Of a stretch of DNA of 64,000 bases, positions 3,902-64,000 are shown piece after piece (the first letter of the stretch is position 1; the number at the start of each line of letters is the position of its first letter). The stretch lies in NCBI GenBank assembly GCA_965649825.1, contig OZ287694.1, positions 2,492,902-2,556,901 on the forward strand, written 5' to 3'. The notes under the pieces were generated by a model. That model worked only from the letters and a program-made list of their open reading frames with translations, ran no database searches and was not told the DNA's origin. The position numbers were made by a program, and so were the translations under genes. Source of the DNA: Penicillus capitatus (lineage: Eukaryota; Plantae; Chlorophyta).

Positions 3902-4416
3902 TATCAAAGAGAAAAGTGTGAGAAAAAGTAAACGACGGCGTTAGGTAGATAGGAAATGAAGAGTTGCACTGTACAGGACCCGATGGCCCGTCAAATCGTC
4001 CATGTAAGAATACAGCCCAAACAAAAAGACACCTGGAACACACTTTCTGGGTCGTCCAACCGTCATCTGGAACACGCAATTCAATACGCGTCAGTAATCT
4101 GCATGGCCACGGGGCTCCATGATCATCATGGAAGCCGCCTTGCCCTTAAGCGATGCCGATTATGGCACAGACAGCAAGTGCAGAGGTAACACCAGTAACA
4201 CGTGTACCTGTCATCGCAGCCGTTATGTAGGACGTCGCGTCGGACCGCATACGTAGGAATGGGGAAGGGAAGGGAAGCGAGAATGTTCCAGTCGGGTATG
4301 TGCAGCATGAAGCGACGCAGGGCCATAGGGAGTGACGCCTGCACGTAAGCGCAAATAGATCCACGACGCGAGAAAAGAAAACGTTCGTGGTCGCGGTCAT
4401 TTTTCACCGTATGACG

Positions 4417-4620
4417 GTACCGACGGTGTAGCCATGTTGGACGTCCAGTTGCCATCCTTCAACCCACCCAAGGTGCTCTCCATGTCTACAAGCGAGGCCG
4501 GACACCGAGGCTTCCCTTACGGTGCGGTGGGTGTACTCACCTTGTTCCGGCAGCGACGCCGCGTTTGACGGCACGGTCCTCCTCATCGTAGGCATCCCAA
4601 AACGCATCGACGGCATCCAT
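4417..4620 (-). pseudogene. LTO1: Truncated 5' fragment of LTO1
   Basis: MDAVDAFWDAYDEEDRAVKRGVAAGT/HGEHLGWVEGWQLDVQHGYTV matches the intact copy at 15938 except G>D and R>Q. It ends at the breakpoint. Confidence 0.8.
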
Positions 4621-4964
4621 CTCAATCCGTTTAATGACGTTCCATTTCTGGCGCGTCGTCTTAGTTGGCTCCACTGCTTGGCGCTAAGCAACGCGGCCGG
4701 TCTCCGATGAAGAACGTCGACTGGGAGAAAGTGCGTTGCCTTCCCTGAGTTGACACGCACTCTGCTGACTCGGATCTCTGCTTCGGCGCAGAAACGGACA
4801 ACGGCGATGCACACGATTCGCCGAGACTCTCAAGGTGGGTGCCCTCTTTCGCGTGTCGAGGCCTTGACGAGATGTGGATCGTGGTCCAGGATTCGAGATC
4901 GTTCGTGACGACGAGTCGGGATTCGTCTTCCGTAGGAAGCGTCAGAAAGTGCCGAGCGTCCGGA
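4417..4964. repeat. Copy A of a ~550-bp inverted duplication (LTO1 5' fragment, divergent promoter, DSN1 5' end)
   Basis: Reverse complement of 15592-16141, with about 10 substitutions and one 2-nt indel by manual alignment. Confidence 0.95.
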
Positions 4965-15591: not shown

Positions 15592-15751
15592 TCCGGACGC
15601 TCGGCACTTTCTGACGCTTTCTGCGGAAGACGAATCCCGACTCGTCGTCACGAACGATCTCGAATCCTGGACCACGATCCACATCTCGTCGAGGCCTCGA
15701 CACGCGAAAGAGGGCACCCCCACCTTGAGAATCTCGGCGAATCGTGTGCAT
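15592..15751 (-). other. Duplicated DSN1 exons 1-2 (35 codons) directly upstream of PIG-O and spliceable in frame to it
   Basis: Encodes MHTIRRDSQGFEIVRDDESGFVFRRKRQKVPSVR. A GT..AG intron at 15591-15541 (51 nt) follows immediately. Confidence 0.6.
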
Positions 15752-16141
15752 CGCCGTCGTGCGTTTCTGCGCCGAAGCAGAGATCCGAGTCAGCAGAGTG
15801 CGTGTCAACTCAGGGAAGGCAACGCACTTTCTCCCAGTCGACGTTCTTCATCGGAGACCGGCCGCGTTGCTTAGCGCCAAGCAGTGGAGCCAACTAAGAC
15901 GACGTGCCAGAAATGGAACGTCATTAAACGGATTGAGATGGATGCCGTCGATGCGTTTTGGGATGCCTACGATGAGGAGGACCGTGCCGTCAAACGCGGC
16001 GTCGCTGCCGGAACAAGGTGAGTACACCCACCGCACCGTAAGGGAAGCCTCGGTGTCCGGCCTCGCTTGTAGACATGGAGAGCACCTTGGGTGGGTTGAA
16101 GGATGGCAACTGGGTGTCCGACATGGCTACACCGTCGGTAC
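15592..16141. repeat. Copy B of the inverted duplication (DSN1 5' fragment, promoter, LTO1 5' end)
   Basis: Reverse complement of 4417-4964. Confidence 0.95.
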
Positions 16142-16565
16142 TGGCAACTCCGTGAATCTCGCCTCACGCACATAAACACATCTCTTGTCTTTTACTAGGG
16201 GCTGAGATCGGGTTCTATGCCGGTACCTTGCACATGTTGAGAGAGTTCCAACGTGAATGCCCTGAGCAGTTCTCAGAGAAGGTCATAGATCCCACTCACT
16301 TTCTGGAAGAGAGTGAGCTTTGCCTTCGATGTTAGGTGGTCCGTTTGATGGGACGATTGGAATCGTTGATCGAGGCATTCCCACTTAGCAATGAGACAGT
16401 GCGCATAGGATCGTTTCTGTTCGCTGGGTTAAACGAACAGTATCTGTATAGGAGAGGGACTTGGAAGTCGAGAGGAACCGGATGACAGAAGTACACAAAC
16501 AGATCGTCGCAAACATGAACGTTGTTGTCACCGTTGCTTCCCCAACAGAAACCATGGATTTCTAG
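15938..16565 (+). CDS. LTO1: LTO1/ORAOV1 (Yae1-N family, Fe-S maturation adaptor)
   Basis: Spliced: ..GEHLGWVEGWQLGVRHGYTVGAEIGFYAGTL..LESLIEAFPLSNE..TMDF*, with the Gly-repeat pattern of the Lto1/Yae1 family. Confidence 0.85.
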
Positions 16566-49404: not shown

Positions 49405-50602
49405 CGCAGTTGGCTGCCTTCCAAGGAGGAAATGCCGCCTGTGATTTGTGTGGATGATGCATCTGATGTCAAGGGGTTTATCTGAAAGATTGTCTGGACA
49501 TCGATCCTGTCTACGCTGCTGATATCAGTACAAACTGAATCTCTTTGTCCTGGGACTCGATGCCGTTTGCACAACACATGCAGGCCACTCAATACTCTCT
49601 TAGCTGTCCGGGTTCAGTGAAGAACTTCTGCCGCAGAGGAAGAGAAGACAAACGTCGAGGTCTCAGCTGGTCAGTTCTCTCTTAACATCAAACGTATATG
49701 GCGTCGTCATTATCTCGCCCGTGTACCAAATCGGCAATTGTGGTTTCTCTTTGGAAAGCAATCGATTCCACAGTTGGAACTCATCAGTTCTGTTGCGTTT
49801 GTGGATTTCTGTGCAAGACTAGCACGAACCGATAGTGTGACCAGATTTGCAGGCAAAAGAATCAGTGAAGCAGAGACTTGGAAACAAGTGGAAGGAAACA
49901 AACAACCAGGTCAAGAAAAACCGTTGTATGTATTACAGATGGCTGAACACAAATAACGGTGAATCAATTCGTCAACTGTGAACCATCGTCTTACTTCCAT
50001 GGTCTAACATAAGGGCAGAGAATCGCAGTGCCGTGCAGCCCATTAAACAGGTACAGTGTTTTAACCAATGAAATATGTGTGTGCGGATGCACATTGTGTA
50101 TTTCTATAGGTGGAGACTACTGATGATCGGTTCTCTGAACTGATACCCAACAACATGCGCCACGGCGAAGTAAAGAGGAGCTAGTATATAGCCGCGGCAA
50201 GCCGAGCTCGGGTTTCAAAGAGATCTTTCTCGAAAGAAAGACAACCGAGGAAGACGGCGCAATGCAAGGTCTGGTTGCATCGTACATCTTTTTTGAAGGA
50301 TATCTGGGGCAGCATGACACATCATTTGTTCGGAATTCCATCCGTCTTCAGGGTAGGAAACGCATCCAAGTTCACTGAATCTACTCTCGCGTTATGTAGA
50401 TAGCTGCTCAACAGAAAGTTGAATATCAGAATGATAAAGAATGCGTTGAATCGACGATGATCAGCCACAATCGACGACGATGGGAACATCTGACTCGTCT
50501 TCTCCACTGAGAACTTTTCTGTGAACTTTCTGCGCGTAGTAGTTTTGTTCGTTGCGTTAATCGGCAAGCGACACTGCTCTATTGCGCTGTCTACAATCAA
50601 GC

Positions 50603-53600
50603 ATGCAATCCCTAGCTCCGGACGAAGGACCCAGTGGCATCGGGACACCGCCCGCCTTGGGAATTGACCGTCGAACTGTAACTGAATCCACATGTGTGGA
50701 AACCTCGAGAATTGACCGTCGACCTATTACTGAAGCCACAAGCACGGAAGAGCGTGACGACCCAAGACTGTTGCGCGCTGTAGCGAAGAAGTACAAAATC
50801 GACAGCATGAAGACATTGGTCGCGGCGTACAACTCGACGACGGATGAAAACGAAAGAGCTGTCTTACTCGGATGGTTACGCAAGTATAATGAACGAAGCG
50901 CCGAATGCCTTGTGTCGAAGGTTGTTTTTGAGTACTCGGAACTGTCCAAAGTCACATTCTGTTCCACAAACGACGACGGCATTTTAGGAAACGTATTCCG
51001 TACCCTTTGTTCCTGCATCTGCAAAGAAAAGGCTCTCGAACCGAATTTCGCCATCTCTCTCTGCAGCGCACTTGTGCACATCGATCCTGCCGCCTATGGT
51101 GGCGCTCCAGAGCTGGTGGCGCTAGCAATGAAGCTTCTGGCCAGTATTTCTCCGAGACCGAAGCTCGCGCGAAAGAACTTTGCGCGCCATGAAGCCACCT
51201 TTCTCGCGTTGCATCAAACTTTTTTTCTGCTTATGAACAGTAATCAAAACGAGATCAATGAAAAAGAAAAACAAGAGCTTCGTCGAACCATTGCGTCGAA
51301 GGAAGAAGAAATGGAGCTCTCGTGCGAATACTATCCTGTGAATTTTCATTTCACAGCACTTCGTCAGGCGGCAGAACACCTCAAACATAAAGACACTACT
51401 TCACGAGCTGCACAAATGAAACAATATCTTATTTGTGGGTTATGCGGATTCGTGTACGTTTTTCATTTCCTAAGAAATCTGGCAAAGTGTGACATCGACC
51501 CTGAGGCTATTCAAGATGCATACAGAAGAGGTCGAGTTGCCATTGACAATATGGGAGTGGCGAAGAGACCATGGTTTGATTTGTTTCGAAGCCTGATGGG
51601 GAAAAGATTAGAATTGTCGAAGGACGAAACGAAGCTCGGGCTTTTCTTATCCGAGTTTGATGCTGCAATGGAATTGCAACAGAAGATGATAAAAGAAAAA
51701 AACTTGAAGGCTCTAAGATTCAGTATCATTCAAGAGATGAGGCTGGCGGCAAAGCAGAGTGCTAACGAAACTGTGCGTAAAGAGATCACGACAAAGCTAT
51801 TGATGCTTTCGGCAAGACGTGCAATCTTTGAAGAGTGGTTTGAAGATGCAGATATCTTTACAGCTTTCTTGGATACTTTACACGAAATCCACAGAATAAG
51901 TGATGATAATCAAGAAACAACCGAAGCGTTCTTGCAAATGCGACAGTCTTGCGAGGGGCGTGCTGGAAGCACGTTGACAGCGTGGCTAGATGGTGACGCC
52001 ATGGAAAACAAGCTTCAAATGCGACATCAACAAGAAGCATACGCAGAGCGCCATAAGGTCTTTGTCAAGATTGCTCGGGATGTTGGATACATCCCCTTAA
52101 ACAAGATTCGGTCTAACGTCAAAGATCTGAAAGACAAATACAAGCATGACATCTTCGCTAATGTGAGTATAATCTTCATAATGTATCAATTGAATTAAGA
52201 TCATGTCCGTTTCGAAGGTGCCTTCATTGTTCGGAACGGAAGTCGGACATCACGTAAAAGAAATGGAGCATTATGTTGTCGTGTACGAAGAGGTTGAACG
52301 GACGATGATTAAAAGAAGAGAAGACCAAGCAGAGAAGGGGGAAGTAGAGGATTCGTCAACTCGAATGAAGGATCACCCAAGAGAACACTACGAAAAGAAA
52401 AAAAAGGTCGCAAAGCCCGTTTCTCTAGAGGATCTGTTTAAAACAAGATCTTTGAAACCCGGCGATCCGGAAAGGGAAGTTAAGAGGGTTCTTCTCTACG
52501 GAGATCCTGGCTCCGGAAAAACGTGTATCAGCAAGGCCATTGCACATAAGTGGGCACTAGGGGAAACGATGCAAGAGTTCGAAGTCATCTACGTCGTTCC
52601 GATCAGACGTGTTAACGTCGCAAAGTTCGAAGGACCGCAAGGCTTGACATTAAAGGGCGTGATTGCACAAGTGTGCTTCCGCGAGAGAGACGACGTCGAA
52701 TACGAAGATCTCTTGCGTCAAGTCGAAGGCGACCTCGATTCTCCCACCACTCTGCTGATGTTTGACGGATTAGATGAAGCTGGAGAAGACGTCAGAGAGC
52801 TCGTTCGGTCGGCGGAGGATCGTTTGTGCAAGCTGCTAGTACTGACGCGCCCGTACAATCTCCAACAGATACGAGCAAGAGTAGATTGCCAGTTCGAGTG
52901 CCTCGGATTCAGCGACCAGCAACTAACAAACTACGTATACAGAGAACTCCAGAAAGACGAAGCATCGAGACTCCTCCATTCTTTGCAACAGGATCGAAGC
53001 ATGTGGGAGATCGCACACACTCCGGTAACGGCGCATATTCTTTGCTCTTTGTCGAGAGAACATGGCATCACCGTTAAAGATCAAGGAAAGAGGGCGAGCA
53101 CGTTTCAGATATACAACAACATGACAAATTTTATGTGGGAGAGATTTAAGGAAAAGCCCGAAGCGAGAACGGTGAACAAGGATACTGTTTTCAGCGATCT
53201 AGAGAAGATAGCTTTCGAAGCACTTCGGAGTGGACAAATACTAGTCGAAGGACGGACTGTCAAAAGCCATGCAACGTCCACAAACACCACTGCAATCTTT
53301 AAGGAGAGTGGATTCCTTCTATTCGTTCTGGAGGGACAACAATATCAGTTTCCTCATCTCACCTTTCAAGAGTACTTTGCGGGGCGATTTATTGCTCGAA
53401 GCTTGAAAAACAAAGGTTCGGATGAGGAGAGACGAGTACTTAAGTTCATTCAAGAAGGAAAGTATAATCAAAAGAATGCTTTGACAATGTCCTTAGCAAT
53501 GCACGCTTTAGCACAAAGGCGATGCACGTTTGCATTGCAAGAGTTGCTTTCGATTTTCGACGAAAACCCCGTCGAGGTTCTTGGAATACAGCACTTTTTC

Positions 53601-55829
53601 TTAAGAATGCGAGTTCTCGAAGCGACCCTAGAAGCAGCAGACGAAGACGAATTGAAAGACCTCCTCAACGACAAACATGCAATCAAGATCGCTGTTAGTG
53701 CGCGTCAACTCCTCGTGCAGACTGTCGACGACGTTCTAATTCGTAGTATCGTGATCGAGGAGTTCCGACAACTGTCATGCGTTTTGGAGAGATTTCCTGA
53801 AATTCTCTATGACACAATTAATGAAGTGAAGATAATGCTGGCATGCAAGCATAAACTATCACGGGAAAAAATGGCGAAAACTGAAGATGCTTTGATCCTC
53901 ACAAGCTGCTCTATGAAGCAAAGTTACAACATAATGCAATTTGTCTTGACACTGGCAGAAAACGCCGATGATTGGTGCAGTTCAAAGGAATACGTGAAGA
54001 GATTTCGCTCTATCGCAGTACTAATGCCGCAGCACGCACGAGAGCTTCTGCCGATTCTGGCGAAAGGGTGTGTCGACAAAAACGCGACGGTTCGTGAGAG
54101 TGCGATGGAAGCCATAGGTTGCGTCATCACGGTGGCGCCGCAGCTCACAGGAGAGCTTCTGCCGATTCTGGAGAAAGGGTGCGTCGACAAAGACTATCAT
54201 GTGTGTCGGGAAGCGTTTAGGATCATCCATCGTGTCGTCACGGCAGCGCCCCAGCACGCTGGCGAGATTCTACCGATGCTAGAAAAATGGTGTGTCGACG
54301 AAAACTCAGAGGTGCGTTGGAATGCGATGGTGGCCATCAGTCGAATTGTTGGGGCAGCGCCGCAGCATGCTAGCGAGATACTATCGACGCTAGAAAAATG
54401 GTGCGTCGACAAAGACTTGAGCGTGCGTGTGAGTGCGATGGAAGCCATTGGTCATGTCGTGGCGGCGACGCCGTTGTACGCCGGCGAGCTTTTGCTGACG
54501 CTAGCTAAGGGATGCGTCGATGTTTCACCAGACGTGCGCGAGAAAGCGTTTGAGGCCATTGGCCACGTTGCCGCGGTTGCACCGCAGCCTGCTGGCGAAC
54601 TCCTGCCGACGTTCGTGGAGAAGTGCGTCAATGAAGACTCAAACGTGCGTCGGAATGCTATGATAGCCATCGGTCGTATCGTCACGGCAGCGCCGCAGCA
54701 CGCCGGCGAGGTTCTGCCGACGTTGGAAAAGTTGTGCGCCGACGAAGACATGAGCGTGCGTCGGAATGCAATGGAGGCCACCGGCCGCGTCGTTGCGGCG
54801 GCGCCCCAGAACGCCGGCGAAGTTTTGCCGACGCTAGCGGCGGCGTGCGTCGACGAAGACGTGTACGTGTGTCAGAGAGCGTTTGAGGCCATCGGCCGCG
54901 TCGTCGCTGCGGCTCCCCAGTACGCCGGCGAGGTTCTGCCGACGCTGGCGAAGGGATGTGTTCACAAAAAATGGAACCCGCGTTGGGCGGCAATAAAAGC
55001 AATCGAAAGCGTTGTCTTGGCGGCGCCCCAGCATGCCGGCGAGATTCTGCCAACGTTGGAAAAGGCTTGCATCGACAGAGTACTGTTCGTGCGTTCTTCG
55101 GCAGTGAGAGCCATCGAAAGCGTCCTCGTGGCGGCTCCCCGGCACGCCAGCGAATTTTTGCCGACGCTGGTGCAGTTCTTCGTCGGCAAAGACGATGATT
55201 TGCGTCGGTCGGCGATGCGAGCTATTGGCAGCGTCGTCGCGGCGGCTCCCCAGTACGCCGGCGAGCTTCTGCCGACGCTAGTCAAGGGATGCGTCAGTGT
55301 TTCATCAGACGTGCGTGAGAAAGCATTTGAAGCCATCGGCCGCGTCGTCGCGGCGGCGCCCCAGTACGCCGGCGAGCTTCTGCCGACGGTAGCCAAGGGA
55401 TGCGTCAGTGTTTCATCAGACGTGCGTGAGAAAGCGTTTGAGGCCCTCGCCCGCGTCGTCGCGGCGGCGCCCCAGTACGCCGGCGAGCTTCTGCCGACGG
55501 TAGCCAAGGGATGCGTCGCCCAATTTGAGCACGAGTTTTGTTCTGCGATGGCGGCATTGAATAGTCTCAGTCCCGAGAATATTATCATTTCGGCAATGAC
55601 AACTTTTCCTAAGTGTGGAACCAGCCTTTACTTCTTTTTTGTGCAGCACCCATTCACGTTGGACTCTCTTATAAAGCAAAAAGCGGTTTCTTTTGTTTTA
55701 CACAAATTGTCTTCACAAAAAATTGGAACGTGGAGTAAGCATGGTGTTGATTCTTTTGTTTCGTTTGTGAGACGAGAATTTGAAGCGAGGTTTCCGGGGT
55801 TGCTGAAGCATCTAAATACGAAAGAGTAG
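50603..55829 (+). CDS. NLR-like STAND protein (~1723 aa): helical N-terminal domain, NACHT NTPase, HEAT repeats
   Basis: The two long ORFs join in frame across a 55-nt GT-AG intron (52163-52217). Walker A GDPGSGKT, Walker B LLMFDGLDE, sensor LVLTRP, TP motif, winged-helix FPHLTFQEYFAG. Confidence 0.9.
54042..55520 (+). repeat. Coding tandem array: 13 full plus 1 partial 111-bp (37-aa) HEAT repeats
   Basis: Unit starts at 54042, 54153, ... 55485 (exact 111-bp period); consensus E(L/V/I)LPTLxKxCVDxxxxVRxxAxxAIGxVVxAAPQxAG. Confidence 0.95.
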
Positions 55830-56464: not shown

Positions 56465-56627
56465 ACGCGACATGTTAAGAATCAAAGTTTAATCTACTTT
56501 CGACAAGTAGTTCGTCATGACGGCCGCGACTACTATATGGTTTACGTCGGTGTTCGATCTTTAGGGTCGTATCGGAATCTCACGTGCTTTCTCAAAGAGT
56601 CTTCTCAAAAGTCCCTAAGGTAGATAT

Positions 56628-56761
56628 TGTCAGAATTCGCTATGAAATAACCTCGAGAAGGAAAGTTTATTAAAAGGCAAAATGTACAAACAAACAGTTT
56701 CATGGTCCTTTTCACAGTAGTTGTCACATCAATTCGTGGACCATCAAACCATTTTCCGACA
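56628..56761 (-). repeat. 3' LTR of element 1
   Basis: Matches 61710-61844. Confidence 0.95.
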
Positions 56762-56797: not shown

Positions 56798-59700
56798 TCA
56801 GAGATGGTAACGCGTCAGCTGAGAGGAGTGGGCCAATATCGGCGGTTTGCCGAGTCCAGGTCGTCGAATTATCCGCGTCGAATCTGATCTTTGCTCTTCA
56901 ACAGTGAACGGACCAATACGTTTAGGTCCGAGCTTCTTCAATGGATGATATTGCCGGCCGTGGCTGATCATGAGAACACGGTCGCCGAGACGAAGTCCCT
57001 TGGATCGTCGCTTGTGTTTCCACTCGAAACGATTCCTTTCATAGGCTTTCGAACCGAGTTGCTTCGTCCGCGCCAGTTCCCAGGCCTGCCTGACCTCATC
57101 TTCTTGCGCAATCACGCCATTCCTGTCTAATCCTCGCATGAGCATGGACGGAGTCGTGCCGATCGCTGAACTCCATGAATTATTGATGGCATGCACAGCT
57201 CCGTCGACGACGCCGGGCCATCCTTCAGTCGAACCATTCAGCATCCGCCGCATTCGTTCGCAGAGCGTGCCGATCATGCGCTCAGCAAGGCCTGCTCCGC
57301 GATGATGCTTGGTCGGCGTTCTTCGTGTGTCGATGCCATGTCGGGCTGCCCATCTTCTGAAGGCATCTGAGTTCCAGCTGCGAAGGGTCACTGGTTCTGC
57401 CTCGAGTCATCTGGCGAGGAGTCGCTGCTGGCGCGCCAACCGTCCCTGTGGCGCCACGCCAGCAGAACATCATTGGAGCGCAGGACGAGAGGTGTGACAG
57501 AGGTGTGACGATATGCCTTACGTAATGATGTGACCCTCCTAATCCGGGGTATTTAAACGGAGCTGCCGTGCTGTATCTGTCTAGCTATGTAAATAGCCAT
57601 TGCCGACAGAGTTTCCCTGCGCGGCTCGCCATCCGGTCCGGACTCGGCCATCGGGTCGACGTTCACACCAGCACGAGACGTTGTCTGTGCACAGCAAGTG
57701 GATTCGTCCTCATCGAGACATCCAGGCATCGAGAGCCTTTATTGCGTGTTGGGAGCCAGTACCGGGAGTTCTCATGACTTCAACGTACTTCGTCGCATCG
57801 TCGACTATCACCAGAAGATGCGATCCATCGAAAAAGGGTACGGCATGGTCGGCGACGACCCGTTCTCCGGCGTGCTGGGCAGGCTCTGTGCTCGGGAGGT
57901 CTCTCGTTTGTGAATAAGCGTTGAAAGCACAATTCGGGCATTCGTCGATGTAATTCCGAACGTCCTTCTCCATTCCTTCCCAGCGTTCGTGATCGAGGAG
58001 AAGATTCTGAATAGTCACGCGTGGTCCCCAATGGCCAAAATGGGCGTCTCGAATCCTTTGTTCGATCACGTCAAAAGACGGTCGATCGACGGCGTGCACC
58101 TTAGCATTTGATACACGGGGCTTCTTGTCTTCCGGAGGGTTCATCCTTGACAACTGGTCTGCGACTTGATTTGCATTTCCCGGCAAATAGTCGAACGTGC
58201 ACCAGTTTTCATTTGAGCATAGGTAGTCGAAGACTCGTGCTGCCCTTTTGTCCGAGCAGAACGCTTCAATGCCCTTGTTCAGAGCATCCACGACTCCTTT
58301 GTTGTCAATGATGACTCTCGTGGGAGTCTCTCCGCGAAAGATCCGTGTGTTCTCCAGTGCCCATTTGACGGTTTTCAGTTCGCCGAGGTATGAGCTTTGA
58401 TTCGGGCATGGGTCTTTGGCGGATCCAACTGCAACTGTCACCGGATCCTCTTTGTCCTTGAACGAACGCAAGTGGTATCCGCGGTGCAGACCGCTTCAAT
58501 CGACGTACAACTCGTACTCGTCGGCTTCTCTACTAAGGCTCAACCGAACGCCTTGTTCGATGAGCCGCGTCCATACCTTCTTCACCTCTTCGTTCACTCA
58601 ACTCCACCACGCTTCTGAGCACAACGCAGAATTTTTCTGCGCACGTATCTTCGCCTCGTTAAGCGGAATTATGAGTTGGCTTAGGCCCACGACATGAGAA
58701 CGACAGAAATTCATTGCCCCCAGAACCCTCTCTAACTGCTTGTAGTGCGAAAAGACAGGCAAGATCGCGGCTTTTGAAGCACAATACCGCTCTAAGTCAA
58801 ACATACCACCACCGATGTGAAAACCAAGAAAATCTACTTCGGGAACGGAGACGATGATTTTGTCTTTGTTCAACTTGAGGCCAAACTTAGACAAACGCTT
58901 GAGTGTAAGATGGAGCAGCCTGTCGTGTTCCTCCTGATCCTTTCCCCCGATTAGCAGGTCATCAGCGTAGACGATCACGTCGAGTCCCATGAGAATATCC
59001 TTCATTCGCTCGACGAACCATATCGGGCTCCAGTCGATGAGGTACCACTTTCCAGACGTACGTCTCATTAAAAATATTGAACCCAAAAAGCAGAAACGTT
59101 TCATGCTTCAGTCCCACAGAGAAGAAGGCGTCTGTAATATCGAGTTTGCTGAATACACGCCATGAGGAAGGAATCGAACGAATCGTTCTAAGAGTATCGA
59201 CGAAGGTGGCTCCAGTAAAGTTGCACATCGCGTTGAGGAGACGGTAGTCATTGAGCGTGCGAATCTTTTTCCCGTCTTTCTTGGGCAGGAAAAAGATCGG
59301 CGACAGGAAGACGCCGTCACTTGCCTTGACTCGCTCAATGAAACCCTTTCTCAAGAAGGATTCTAATTCCTCTCGGATACGGCGTTCGGGGACAAGATTA
59401 TCAATGCGAGGCACTGTGCGTTGCCCACCGAAGAAGGGGTCACACTTCAGCCGGCATTCCCTAATGTCCACCCTAAGCGCCTTCATAGCCGGCGTCATCG
59501 AGGATCGATCTCCGGAAAACACAGATGCAAACTCACTATAGATGTCGCCTTTTACGGGAAACACCGACTTCACGGCTACGTCCTTATGTTCAGACGGCTC
59601 TACTGGTAAAAAAACAGCAAGTCAAACGTCCCGACAACCATAAGTTGCAAACGAAAGAGCGGCCAGGGAGTACCTGTGGTTGTTCGGTCGAGCTAAAAAC

Positions 59701-60360
59701 TTGAACCCTGATCTGCCCACAGTCAGTTATGGAAATTGTATCCAAAATGCCCTTCTTGTCGAGAGAACATAAAAGAGAAACGCACGACAAGTTTCCTTCG
59801 ACCACCCAGGGGAGATATAAACAGACCCACTCACGACTTGGTAGAAAAACTGTTTTCCCGACAGGTAATTTCGCTAGATTTCTACGGCAAACTGGGCGTA
59901 CATTCCGCTCCGTTTCCCAGAGCTGTCGAATGTTTATCCCTTCGGAGTCGCCCCCCTCCGAGGGTTTCCTCAAAAAGACGCGGAGCAGATCATCGCCCGA
60001 TCCTTCAAGCGGATCGTAGCTCCAAATACTTCCAACGCAGGTATCCCAATGATAAGTTTATGCGCTGAATCGGGAACGACGAGGAAGGACACCTGACGCG
60101 TCTTCTTGCCAAGCTGAGTCCCAAGCTGGAGTACACCCAGCGTCTTTGTCACAGACCCATTGAAACCGGCCAATCTCTTCGGTTCTCCGACGTCATGCCA
60201 CAAATCACTCTCCTTGAAGCCAAGGTCGATTGCTGTCTTCAGGGACATTATGTTTACCGAACTGCCAGTATCTATCAGTCCTTTGAACTTGAGGGACTTC
60301 CCATGTTTCGACGCGAAATTGAACGATACATGCAGGCGGCGTCCAATCAGTGGGGACTCC
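56798..60360 (-). pseudogene. Disrupted pol of element 1: protease, dUTPase-like domain, RT, RNase H, integrase
   Basis: LIDTGSSVNI (PR); KLDITDAF and VYADDLL (RT); LYVD..SSYLGEL..IIDN (RH); HFGH..CPNC, ADH..TDN..AERM, GPF (IN). Three frameshifts, three TGA stops and one solo-LTR insertion. Confidence 0.92.
57379..57667. mobile_element. 289-bp solo LTR of another family inserted in the integrase
   Basis: TGCGAA..TTCACA termini; TSD CCAGC at 57374-57378 and 57668-57672. Removing it restores TDNVSCWNSDAFRRW. Confidence 0.9.
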
Positions 60361-61683
60361 TCTTTCCCGATAGAGCAAACAGTCTTTCGTTCGACGGGGT
60401 AATCTCCTCCTCGGTTGATCCTTCGTTCTCGAAAACCTCTTCCTCTTCTTCATTGGCCCTGGACGCCGCTGACGTCGATATCTTCTTTTGCGTTTCCACA
60501 TCTTTTTCGGATCGACTCAGTTCGGTCGTCTCCGTGAGACTCTCCACCAGTTCCGAGGCAAGCTCCTCTTTCCCATCGTCGTCTCCGTCGAGGAACGTTT
60601 CTAGGGCATCAATACGCGCCCTTCGACGAGCCACCAGTTGCCGGCGGTGGGCACAAAATCCTTTCTCATTGCATGTCTTGCACGGATGTTGCTGAAAGCA
60701 TTCTGAATCATCGTGCTTGTCCGTCTGGCAGACCTTGCAGTATCGGTTTCGCAGCAGTGGTCGATAGGGCTGTCTTAACACTAGCGCCTTTTCATTTGAC
60801 CCCTCTCTGTTCCTGATGTCTTTCTTAATGTCTCCAAGAATGGCCTTCATTCCCGTGAGGTCTTCATCCACTTTGGCTTCGAGTCTTGCAACACGATCCT
60901 CAATTTTTCTCTCCGTCTTCTTTATCTGTTTACCTGCATCCTCTCTTCTCTCCACCTTCTGCTGGATTTTGGCTTTTTCGACGAACGCCATAAGGAATGC
61001 AAAGAACGCTTTGGTGACAGCTATCGGGAGCACAATTCCGGGTGTACCCAGAACCCAACACGATCCAGACTTCAGCAATGATAACACTTTGTGAATGTAC
61101 AAGACGAGTGCGCATAGGAGCGTCCATCCCAGAACACCTTTTCCTATACCAAGGATGGAGGAGAGCGTCCGGATGACATGATGCCGTTGGCCTGATTGTC
61201 TGTCTTGTCTCCAACGCCAAGCGGGTCTGTGACAATCGTTTTAACGAACTCCCACGCGTGCCTTATCGTCCTCGCAGAAATTCCACCGGTGAGTTTTAAA
61301 CAGCACCAGAGGGTGCCACATCCCTCGACCACGAAAATTTCTTCGTTTCGATCGGCTTCGGGCCAGGAGCCTGTCATCCATTGCCACCATGATCGACTGT
61401 TCTTCTTATCAGAGCTCTTCATTGTCTCTTGCTGCATTTGATGAAGTTGTCTTTGCAATTCATCAATTTGCTCTTCATATCGTTTGTTCTTCTCGGAGAG
61501 TCTAGTTATCTCGCTTCGCAGGTTCTTGTTGTCACGCAACACATCCGTGACCGGAACTCCTGACTCCTCGAACCGCTTCTGCACGTCTTGGTCTTCGTCA
61601 GGGTTTTCTTTCTGCGTAACTGCCGCTTCCGCAGGTAACAATGCCAAGCAGAAAAGTAGCAGCGTCACGCCCATATTTCGCAT
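60347..61683 (-). CDS. ORF1 of element 1: signal peptide, coiled coils, two TM helices, CCHC knuckle (one internal frameshift)
   Basis: MRNMGVTLLLFCLALLPAEA; frame change near 61170-61230; GVLGWTLLCALVLYIHKVLSLL; WVLGTPGIVLPIAVTKAFFAFLMAFV; CKVCQTDKHDDSEC. Confidence 0.75.
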
Positions 61684-61693
61684 CCGAGTGTAG

Positions 61694-61709
61694 CCTCGCT
61701 CCGAAACCA
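61694..61709 (-). promoter_or_regulatory. Primer-binding site of element 1 (TGGTTTCGGAGCGAGG)
   Basis: Directly abuts the 5' LTR and starts with TGG, the complement of tRNA CCA. Confidence 0.85.
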
Positions 61710-61844
61710 TGTCAGAATTCGCGATGAAATAACCTCGAGAAGGAAAGTTTATTAAAAGGCAAAATGTACAAACAAACAGTTTCATGGTCCTTTTCACAGT
61801 AGTTGTCACATCAATTCGTGGACCATCAAACCCATTTTCCGACA
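61710..61844 (-). repeat. 5' LTR of element 1
   Basis: Matches 56628-56761; AATAAA present on the element strand. Confidence 0.95.
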
Positions 61845-61981
61845 GATATGCCCTAGCATTAGATCCATCCACTTCCTGCAATGCACTGTCACCACAAAGT
61901 CGAAGAGAGAAGATGATATCATGACATAAAGCATGACGCAATTATAACGTCATGCTAGAAAACCATATAAGATGGGGTGTT

Positions 61982-64000
61982 TGATACAATCGATATCTTT
62001 TTGAAAACAAACGTCTGCCGAATTTAACCTCTTCGATATTTTCGCGTATCAAAATGGTTTCGGAGCTGCGAACCTCGAAAATCGACCTCGAAACGTTTAC
62101 CTCTATACTCGGTTCCGCGGCACTCGTCGAAGACGATTACCGCCCACGCATCAAACATGTTGTCCAGAAGCTAGAGCCGAGGTCGCCGGCCTTTGAGCTC
62201 TTCAGACAGGCGCTTGAGCGCGTCGAGCCCCATTTCCGCTCGCACGCTACTTTCCAGACGGCATTCGTAGGTGACGACGCAACTGTCCAACAATTCTTCG
62301 CCGCCCAGGCGGCACCCACGACGGAGAACAAATGGACCATCGTGCGGGGAATAATACTCGCAGCGTGCCTAGTATCCTCGCTGTCAGCTGAAGAACAGCT
62401 AGCGAGATGCACAAAGGGAAAAGGAGTGACATTGTCAGACTTCGTGGACAAGTACCTTGCCGCCTGTACCGTGTCCACCGCGTCCAGGGAGAATCAGGTC
62501 AAGACATTGTACCGGAAGCTGCCGGCCAATCTCAAGAAGCTGATGCTTCACCTACCTCCGACGGCAACACCGGCCGATATGCGCATGGTGATGCGCAACA
62601 TGAGCTTCTGGGAATCAGGGGCAACAGGAAGGGCTGAACCCGATGAGGATGCCATGGACATTGATCTGAGCATAATTCAAGCGAATGCCGCCACGACGGA
62701 TGGAAGGGTGATCATGAATGACGGGACGATCAATTTTTCCGCTATCACGAACGCAGGCAGAGTCATGGTTGGGGCCGGCGAGATCTGCAAGACATCAAGA
62801 CGCGAAGCACAGAACATGCTAAGGTTCCTTCAGCGAATATGCAACAACCAAGACGGACCAACAAATCAGAGGAGGCCAATGAACCAACTAAGAAGATGGG
62901 GAGGACGCCGCGCATTTGTGGCAGCAGAGGAGATCGCACCCGAAGGAAGCGGGGAACCAGTATGCGAGACGCTGAGTCAGGGAGGAGAAGAAGACACCGA
63001 GCAAGACATGTCGCGAACCTATGCGGCACAAACGACGGGGAAAGGAAAAGAACAGAAAAAAGTGATGAAGCTTGGACTGGTCTCACAGAGCCACCTTGGT
63101 TACCCAAGAAAGATCGACACTTTAGTCGATACAGGGGCAGAGTCCTCAATCATGTCCCTTGCGCTAGCCAAGGAACTAGGGGCTAAAATCGTACCGGACG
63201 GGACGAGACTGCTTCTCGCCCACGGGAAGACGGCATAAGTCACCGGGAAATGCGAAATAGACGTGTCCATCGAGAAGACCACACATCCGACCTTCCGTCT
63301 GGATTGTCTGGTGCTACCGAACCCAGGGTATGATTTGCTCTTGGGGATAGACGCGATGACCAAGAACCAGATCTCGGCGCACCCACACAACAGATCGGTA
63401 AGCATCAAAGGGCGAAACATCAAATGCCTCTTTGCGGGACCAAGAATGGACAAGGAAGTGAAGAATGGGGTCATCAGACAGGGGGACATTGGGCAATTAA
63501 CAGAACGAGTTGAACATCTCCCAGCGATTAAGGGAGATAGGATTCAGGTGCCCTTGAACAAATCAGTAGTCTTGGGACCAAAAGAAAGCCGCATGGTGAA
63601 GACACCGATCGTCATTCCGAGAACAATGGTGCACCAACGAACGCCATCGTTGCACCTCACTTCTCTGTACACCTGGGTGTACAATACGAGACCTTCTCGA
63701 CCCTAACCTTGACTAACCATCGCGAGGAGCCCATTCGTATCACGGGGAAGACGACGATTTTTGAAATCCCCGCACAAACAGGAGAAGCCCAGATGATCCG
63801 CGATTGCAATGGACAGCGACACCAGCTGCGCGGGACCAGGCAATCTTTTCCCAAGCGGCAGTAGACCAGCAGTCAGGCCTACTGTCGAGAAATCCGAAAA
63901 CTGACTGCTGCGGTATGGAACAGCTGCTGATTGAATTCCCAGACGTCATCCGTGAAGGAATTGGGCGTTTTTCGGGTCGGGAGGTCGGCATCGACGACGC
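61982..64000 (+). mobile_element. Second Ty3/gypsy element, 3'-partial (gag, protease, dUTPase-like, start of RT); LTR start uncertain
   Basis: ..GTATCA then AAA then PBS TGGTTTCGGAGC (62055-62066); gag with DAMDID; LVDTGAESSI protease; in-frame TAA at 63236-63238; frameshifts downstream. Confidence 0.85.

What the first reader, a model, noticed from the sequence alone, without database searches (positions are those of the whole stretch)
60347..61683. LTR retrotransposon whose 'Gag' looks like a membrane protein with no recognisable capsid
ORF1 starts 26 nt after the LTR with a classical signal peptide (MGVTLLLFCLALLPAEA/A). It continues with a coiled coil, a Trp/Cys-rich stretch, two TM helices (after one frameshift), a ~60-aa coiled coil, a perfect CCHC knuckle plus a degenerate one, and an acidic spacer before the protease (seen). 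Only ~80 aa separate TM2 from the knuckle, too few for the two-domain CA fold that Ty3/gypsy Gag normally has (established). Inference: the RNA-binding and Pol modules are tethered to a secretory membrane, so the genome may be packaged in vesicles or membrane compartments rather than a capsid, possibly allowing env-independent spread. The LTRs are very short (134 bp) and nearly identical, so insertion was recent. This is the best candidate for an undescribed system in the window.
Basis: partly seen in the sequence, partly recalled or inferred. Interest (0 to 1): 0.8.

Follow-up and report, generated by a model that had tools for sequence, protein, structure and literature searches.

The report
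Capsid-less, membrane-anchored algal LTR retrotransposons
This is a broken copy of a jumping gene, likely from a green seaweed, whose intact relatives keep every copying enzyme but show no capsid protein and carry a predicted membrane anchor instead, so they likely assemble on cell membranes rather than in the usual virus-like shell.

Summary
The window holds a decayed 5.2-kb Ty3/gypsy-like element (LTRs 134/135 bp, 5-bp target duplication, several frameshifts, an insertion in integrase). Intact relatives settle the anatomy. L024 and L025 have identical LTRs, open Pol genes and a -1 slip site after the protease. Their ORF1 matches the window's on both sides of its break: leader, coiled coil, Trp/Cys zone, one strong TM helix, coiled coil, double zinc module, protease. 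They have no room for a capsid (CA) and no CA profile hit. Sister element L002 has the same membrane module plus a CA C-terminal domain (top structural hits are capsids); other elements have CA only. So the membrane module is part of ORF1, and CA is the part that comes and goes. Corrections: ORF1 likely starts at the LTR/PBS junction (MVSE), one TM is strong, and the second knuckle is conserved. Capsid-free replication on membranes is inferred (about 0.5); borrowing a helper's capsid is the main rival (0.3). Nine paper searches found no description; the scan's only similar note concerns a diatom copia element.

The parts
61845..61849 (.). Target-site duplication (GATAT), right copy; left copy 56623-56627
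   Evidence: contigs joining the two flanks without the element exist in runs X1 and X2
61710..61844 (-). 5' LTR, 135 bp, TG..CA
61698..61709 (-). Primer-binding site TGGTTTCGGAGC; with the last LTR base it forms the likely start codon and MVSE
   Evidence: likeness to initiator-Met primer sites is recalled, no tRNA was matched (one search found none in 9 loci)
61621..61710 (-). ORF1 leader with hydrophobic core and AEA/A site, predicted signal peptide
   Evidence: hydrophobic leader also in L024, L025, L002; no signal-peptide program available
61210..61620 (-). Predicted luminal module: coiled coil, WWQW motif, C-X4-CC motif, amphipathic helix
   Evidence: shared with the CA-bearing family by profile comparison, 96.9%, E 1.3e-10
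61160..61210 (-). Zone of the first ORF1 frameshift
61082..61144 (-). Predicted transmembrane helix; weaker hydrophobic segment at 60971-61033
60800..60980 (-). Predicted cytosolic coiled coil where CA lies in L002
60647..60739 (-). Double zinc module: CCHC knuckle plus C-X2-C-X5-C-X-H
   Evidence: conserved in L024 and L025
60390..60613 (-). Acidic spacer, followed by a second frameshift zone near 60400
59970..60400 (-). Aspartic protease (DTGS); in ORF1 frame in intact relatives; ends at a T-run and hairpin, with Pol in the -1 frame
56807..59910 (-). Pol: beta-rich linker domain, RT, RNase H, integrase; broken by frameshifts, stops and an insertion
   Evidence: breaks between 57751 and 61133 are in read contigs with no differences
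57380..57667 (.). High-depth repeat inserted into the integrase
56628..56761 (-). 3' LTR, 134 bp, preceded by a short purine tract shared with L002

Best explanation
This is a decayed copy of a Ty3/gypsy-like retrotransposon lineage whose first gene shows no capsid domain and encodes a predicted single-pass membrane protein that likely gathers the element's RNA and enzymes on a secretory membrane in place of a capsid. Shown: one open frame runs leader - coiled coil - Trp/Cys zone - TM - coiled coil - double zinc module - protease in intact, recently moved relatives, followed by a -1 slip site and an intact Pol. Inferred: the leader sends the protein into the ER; the N-terminal module sits in the lumen; the zinc module, protease and frameshifted Pol face the cytosol; the two coiled coils oligomerise many ORF1 copies, which would cluster or wrap the membrane round the RNA; the protease would then free RT and integrase. 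The window copy joins an L025-type ORF1 to an L002-type protease and Pol, likely by recombination.
For: L024 and L025: LTR pairs 100% identical, 5-bp target duplications, Pol open for about 1020 codons with RT, RNase H and integrase motifs, A_AAA_AAC plus a hairpin at the ORF1 stop, and no space for another forward gene. A kept -1 site implies ORF1 is made in excess over Pol, as structural proteins are (established for gag/pol; inferred here). TM-to-knuckle gaps are 114 (window), 157 and 159 residues, modelled in L025 as one long helix and a low-confidence Pro-rich stretch. A CA profile scored at most -1.8 bits in 8 of 8 CA-negative candidates, and found held-out L002 at 27.5 bits, E 5.5e-9. 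The same fold pipeline found CA in L002 (19 top rows all capsid-type, best Z 9.1, rmsd 3.3, 87 aligned). The TM zone of L024 against L025 is under purifying selection (pN 0.28, pS 0.70) and as conserved as RT-RH (58% against 61%). CA-less L024 and L025 are only 61% identical in RT-RH, so the state is old.
Against: No expression, localisation or particle data. CA-bearing elements with the same primer site live in the same genomes (L002, L026, L028-L031; window neighbour 72% identical to L028), so help in trans is possible. The CA profile missed L028 (-1.3 bits) and barely found L026 (E 0.018) when both were held out. The L025 model is weak (mean pLDDT 59, pTM 0.21, 4 rows). The DNA-level case rests on two intact elements from one assembly plus the broken window copy; the Caulerpa cases are gene models whose DNA was not seen, and a predicted intron could hide a CA.
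Confidence: 0.5

Rival explanations
1. Helper-dependent parasite: the CA-less elements borrow the capsid of a CA-bearing relative. Their membrane module would bring ORF1, Pol and RNA to the membrane site where L002-type Gag assembles.
For: CA-bearing families share the genome and primer site. The luminal module is homologous between CA-less and CA-bearing families, which could allow mixed oligomers. BARE2 cannot make Gag and is packaged in BARE1 particles (PMC3735527, abstract).
Against: ORF1, protease, slip site and all of Pol are kept under selection across deep divergence. Without CA, a Gag-Pol fusion lacks the usual way to co-assemble into a shell (established; inferred here).
Confidence: 0.3
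2. The membrane module is a spread factor (Env-like or sORF2/FAST-like) fused in front of Gag; it would move element RNA between cells or compartments, and loss of CA is a separate matter.
For: Leader, heptads, Trp-rich and Cys motifs and a TM recall fusion proteins (recalled likeness). sORF2 is a short TM protein that carries env-less retrotransposons between cells (PMC11952523, abstract); Tor Env is a TM glycoprotein (PMC4402516, abstract and passages).
Against: Those proteins are separate ORFs and move capsids. The Cys motif is not conserved in spacing across families, and the predicted ectodomain is only about 140-170 residues.
Confidence: 0.1
3. A much diverged capsid fold hides in ORF1, so the element is an ordinary Gag with an ER-targeting leader, like mouse IAP.
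For: IAP gained an ER signal in frame with Gag (10.1101/2022.06.22.497016, passages); Ty1 Gag passes through the ER (PMC3945221, abstract). Pfam missed even the real CA of L002, L026 and L028.
Against: Between TM and knuckle there is only a heptad helix and a Pro/Gly-rich linker; the part before the TM would be luminal and is mostly one long helix. L002 shows where CA lies in this family, and that segment is absent.
Confidence: 0.07
4. The CA-less ORF1 is only a deletion product of this dead copy, or a captured host fragment.
For: The window copy has many lesions, and its nearest Pol relatives have CA.
Against: Intact L024 and L025 share the whole layout, including the double zinc module that the L002 family lacks.
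Confidence: 0.03

Closest known systems
Ty3/gypsy LTR retrotransposons (Metaviridae), e.g. yeast Ty3
   Same: LTRs, primer site, PR-RT-RH-IN order, CCHC knuckle; best PDB hit of the Pol profile is Ty3 Gag-Pol, E 7e-46, foamy virus Pol next
   Different: No CA detected; ORF1 has a leader and TM; protease is in the ORF1 frame; RNase H has DWS/DWSG at the first acidic site; extra beta-rich domain before RT
Mouse IAP elements
   Same: ER-targeting signal at the N-terminus of Gag, no env (10.1101/2022.06.22.497016, passages)
   Different: IAP is a retrovirus derivative that forms capsid particles (recalled); here there is a luminal module and TM, and CA is missing
Yeast Ty1
   Same: Gag enters the ER through SRP and this nucleates assembly sites (PMC3945221, abstract)
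   Different: Ty1 is copia-type and builds virus-like particles from Gag; no TM anchor is described in the abstract
BARE2 of barley
   Same: Element that moves without its own capsid protein (PMC3735527, abstract)
   Different: BARE2 cannot make Gag; here ORF1 is open, conserved and replaced in content
sORF2 of Drosophila MDG1-group elements; Tor Env of Oikopleura
   Same: Retrotransposon-encoded TM proteins (PMC11952523 abstract; PMC4402516 abstract and passages)
   Different: Separate genes beside a normal gag; here the TM module is in frame with knuckle and protease

Membership tests
Ty3/gypsy LTR retrotransposon | Two LTRs with TG..CA ends and a short target duplication | tested here: met
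Ty3/gypsy LTR retrotransposon | tRNA primer-binding site after the 5' LTR | tested here: inconclusive
   TGG-led motif conserved in the family; no tRNA gene was matched
Ty3/gypsy LTR retrotransposon | Domain order PR-RT-RNase H-IN | tested here: met
Ty3/gypsy LTR retrotransposon | RT groups with a named Metaviridae clade | not testable with these tools
   no named reference rows could be fetched; best solved-structure hit is Ty3
Ty3/gypsy LTR retrotransposon | Gag capsid domain before the knuckle, by family profile and available length | tested here: not met
   window, L024, L025: no profile hit in six frames, 114-159 residues mostly coiled coil; met in L002
Ty3/gypsy LTR retrotransposon | Capsid fold by structure search of the CA-less ORF1 model | tested here: inconclusive
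   weak model, coiled coil fills the list
Ty3/gypsy LTR retrotransposon | Nucleocapsid zinc knuckle | tested here: met
   C-X2-C-X4-H-X4-C in the window
IAP-like ER-targeted Gag | N-terminal signal that targets Gag to the ER | tested here: inconclusive
   hydrophobic leader seen; targeting not testable
BARE2-like Gag-less parasite | Cannot make its first-gene product | tested here: not met
   ORF1 open and under selection in L024 and L025
BARE2-like Gag-less parasite | RNA packaged in a helper's particles | not testable with these tools
   needs particle data
Env- or sORF2-bearing retrotransposon | TM protein in a separate ORF beside a CA-bearing gag | tested here: not met
   TM module in frame with knuckle and protease

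The most novel reading that the evidence does not exclude
An autonomous LTR retrotransposon lineage that has given up the capsid altogether and reverse-transcribes inside a membrane compartment or vesicle shaped by its own single-pass membrane ORF1, with natural intermediates (CA only; membrane module plus CA; membrane module alone) still active side by side in one algal genome.
Probability: 0.4. Interest if true: 0.92.

Novelty: new variant of a known kind. Interest (0 to 1): 0.78.

Why it matters
A Gag capsid is held to be essential for LTR retroelements and retroviruses (established knowledge). Young, enzyme-complete elements with a membrane anchor and no detectable CA would show that the shell can be replaced, or that a new kind of capsid parasitism exists. 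The family offers CA-only, membrane-plus-CA and membrane-only members in one genome, which makes the question directly comparable and testable, and bears on how membrane association and envelopes arose in retroelements.

Tried and rejected
No own genome is held. Searches with the window's ORF1 3' piece found no informative homologue: none among longer proteins; 3 hits among representatives, being the window's own protein and two weak coiled-coil or low-complexity matches; ESM Atlas blank for it and for L025 ORF1. Viral contigs and metagenome contigs gave no locus. Direct BLASTP of the window ORF1 pieces against Caulerpa P0037 was not significant (E 0.14 and 0.19); the link runs through L024 (E 5e-05) and Pol. 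Fold searches with the L025 ORF1 model listed no capsid: 5 weak PDB rows, no viral row under E 0.1, only generic coiled coils at Z 7.1 or lower; this absence is weak. Pfam detects CA in none of the family's ORF1 proteins, CA-bearing ones included. Variants in read contigs gave 10 synonymous of 21 scored (11 of 11 in one contig, 10 of 16 in another), too few to use. No RNA holder listed. The beta-rich linker domain gave only weak hits (galectin E 0.01, dCTP deaminase E 0.39). No complex prediction was run. Rows dropped: the second tree left out 7 of 22 rows (L027, L032, L028, L029, P0004, P0011, P0012). L027, L032 and L060 were not classed for ORF1 type. Not in print rests on 9 searches of an open-access library, listings only; Repbase and subscription journals were not searched, and no supplements were read.

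Full report
The element. The window holds a 5217-bp LTR element on the minus strand, with LTRs at 61710-61844 and 56628-56761 (one substitution, one indel), TG..CA ends and a GATAT target duplication. Contigs of runs X1 and X2 join the two flanks without the element, so the insertion is not fixed. The order is ORF1, protease, RT, RNase H, integrase. A profile of related Pol proteins hits Ty3 Gag-Pol best among solved structures (E 7e-46), then foamy virus Pol. The copy is dead: ORF1 has a frameshift between about 61160 and 61210, another lies before the protease, Pol has two more plus stops, and a repeat is inserted in integrase. Read contigs match 57751-61133 without a difference, so those lesions are real. 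Across the first ORF1 break the only contigs listed come from a slightly different copy and show a small gap there; an assembly slip at that one place is not excluded. The host is an intron-rich eukaryote; the only named relatives are Caulerpa lentillifera proteins, so a green seaweed is inferred.

ORF1 as seen. The frame is open from an ATG made by the last LTR base and the primer site (MVSE), a start shared across the family. In L024 and L025 that is the only Met before or at the start of the hydrophobic leader's core, so it is the likely start. On a recalled membrane-insertion scale the leader and the first internal segment score as membrane helices, the second is marginal. One TM after a cleaved leader would put the zinc module, protease and Pol in the cytosol; two would not. 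The second zinc motif is conserved in L024 and L025.

Intact relatives. Direct ORF1 searches were blank. An RT query gave 11 proteins, 59-79% identical, and a scan of genome contigs gave L001 and L002, in an assembly (G001) that holds 20 matches to the Pol. Three ORF1 types occur there. (a) CA only: L026 and L028-L031. (b) Membrane module plus CA: L002 (L001 is a near-identical copy with a broken ORF1), with 8 further hits. Its model is confident mainly at residues 380-466; the 19 best VIA rows are capsid-type domains (best Copia capsid, Z 9.1, rmsd 3.3, 87 aligned), and Foldseek lists mostly capsids and retropepsins, none under E 0.001. (c) Membrane module without CA: L024 and L025, and by profile alone L023. 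The window's two ORF1 pieces match L025 collinearly. The coiled coil/Trp/Cys module is homologous between types b and c (96.9%, E 1.3e-10). Four Caulerpa gene models show leader, coiled coil, TM and knuckle; the TM-to-knuckle gap is 119 residues in the two measured. Their DNA was not seen.

Is CA really absent? A profile of 7 CA segments of this family scored at most -1.8 bits over six frames of the window, L024, L025 and L023 elements and over 4 Caulerpa proteins. With the L002 rows held out it found L002 at E 5.5e-9. With the CA-only rows held out it found L026 weakly (E 0.018) and missed L028. L024 and L025 leave no space for another forward gene. In the L025 model the TM is followed by one long helix and a Pro-rich stretch (mean pLDDT 59). 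Fold searches on it are inconclusive by themselves.

Are the CA-less elements alive? L024 and L025 have identical LTR pairs, target duplications, open Pol frames with catalytic motifs, and a canonical A_AAA_AAC slip site with a hairpin of -22 to -27 kcal/mol at the ORF1 stop. Between them the TM zone has pN 0.28 against pS 0.70 and 58% identity, close to RT-RH (61%); the first coiled coil and acidic spacer drift faster (30-33%).

History. In an RT-RH tree of 22 rows the window groups with the L002 clade (88/89, not starred) inside a starred clade that includes Caulerpa, far from L024 and L025. A 15-row tree rejects window plus L024 plus L025 as one clade (p-AU 0.009; long branches are in play). 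The window's protease is also nearer the CA-bearing type (41-45%) than L024/L025 (29-31%). Its ORF1 and Pol therefore likely have different histories, most simply an ORF1 swap; retention of an old CA-less ORF1 is the alternative. By matching contig lengths only, the Pol proteins P0005, P0006 and P0010 likely pair with CA-bearing ORF1s P0046, P0044 and P0050.

Mechanism. I favour a membrane-anchored ORF1 that stands in for the capsid (0.5): it is kept, likely made in excess, and carries the RNA-binding module and protease on the predicted cytosolic side. Borrowing a helper's capsid (0.3) cannot be excluded, because CA-bearing elements share the genomes and primer site. A spread factor (0.1), a hidden CA (0.07) and simple decay (0.03) are less likely. 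Caulerpa is a giant multinucleate cell (recalled), where membrane traffic could carry element complexes between nuclei; this is speculation.

Known systems. IAP gained an ER signal on Gag (10.1101/2022.06.22.497016, passages); Ty1 Gag passes through the ER (PMC3945221, abstract); BARE2 uses BARE1 particles (PMC3735527, abstract); sORF2 and Tor Env are separate TM genes (PMC11952523, abstract; PMC4402516, abstract and passages). None of the text seen describes a TM module fused to knuckle and protease in place of CA. Nine searches listed no paper on this family. The scan's notes held one loosely similar case, a TM helix inside a diatom copia polyprotein that keeps its capsid (e1-7504827; not checked); some searches were blank.

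Verdict. Observation confirmed; new variant of a known kind, with a real chance (0.4) of a capsid-free mode of LTR retrotransposition. Interest 0.78.

Noticed in passing
window 61930-64000 (+): A second LTR element of the same wider family starts about 90 bp from the first; its ORF1 begins MVSE, has a CA-like segment, no TM and no knuckle, and is 72% identical to L028. A possible helper type.
   Followed up: partly
window 59593-59960 (-); L002, L023-L026, L028: All family members aligned carry a beta-rich domain of about 110 residues between protease and RT with no Pfam hit; weak dCTP deaminase hits (E 0.39, 1.9) hint at a dUTPase-type fold.
   Followed up: partly
L061 739-9401 (-): 8.7-kb element with identical 654-bp LTRs whose ORF1 frame of over 1000 codons has four hydrophobic segments, a knuckle and protease, and no CA profile hit; not clearly homologous to the window's membrane module.
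   Followed up: partly
P0049, P0047: P0049 keeps only the CA C-terminal part; P0047 joins an L002-type ORF1 to an unlike protease (37% identity), another sign of module swapping.
   Followed up: partly
window 57380-57667: Short high-depth repeat inserted in the integrase.
   Followed up: no
window 50561-55829 (+): NACHT NTPase followed by about 13 HEAT repeats of 37 residues, an NLR-like gene, just beside the element.
   Followed up: no
window 4412-4964 and 15592-16146: Inverted repeat of about 550 bp, 96-98% alike, 10.6 kb apart, around ordinary-looking genes.
   Followed up: no
G001 contigs C3-C13: A bacterial genome assembly (record title Botrimarina MAG) holds contigs full of LTR retrotransposons, likely algal contamination.
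   Followed up: partly
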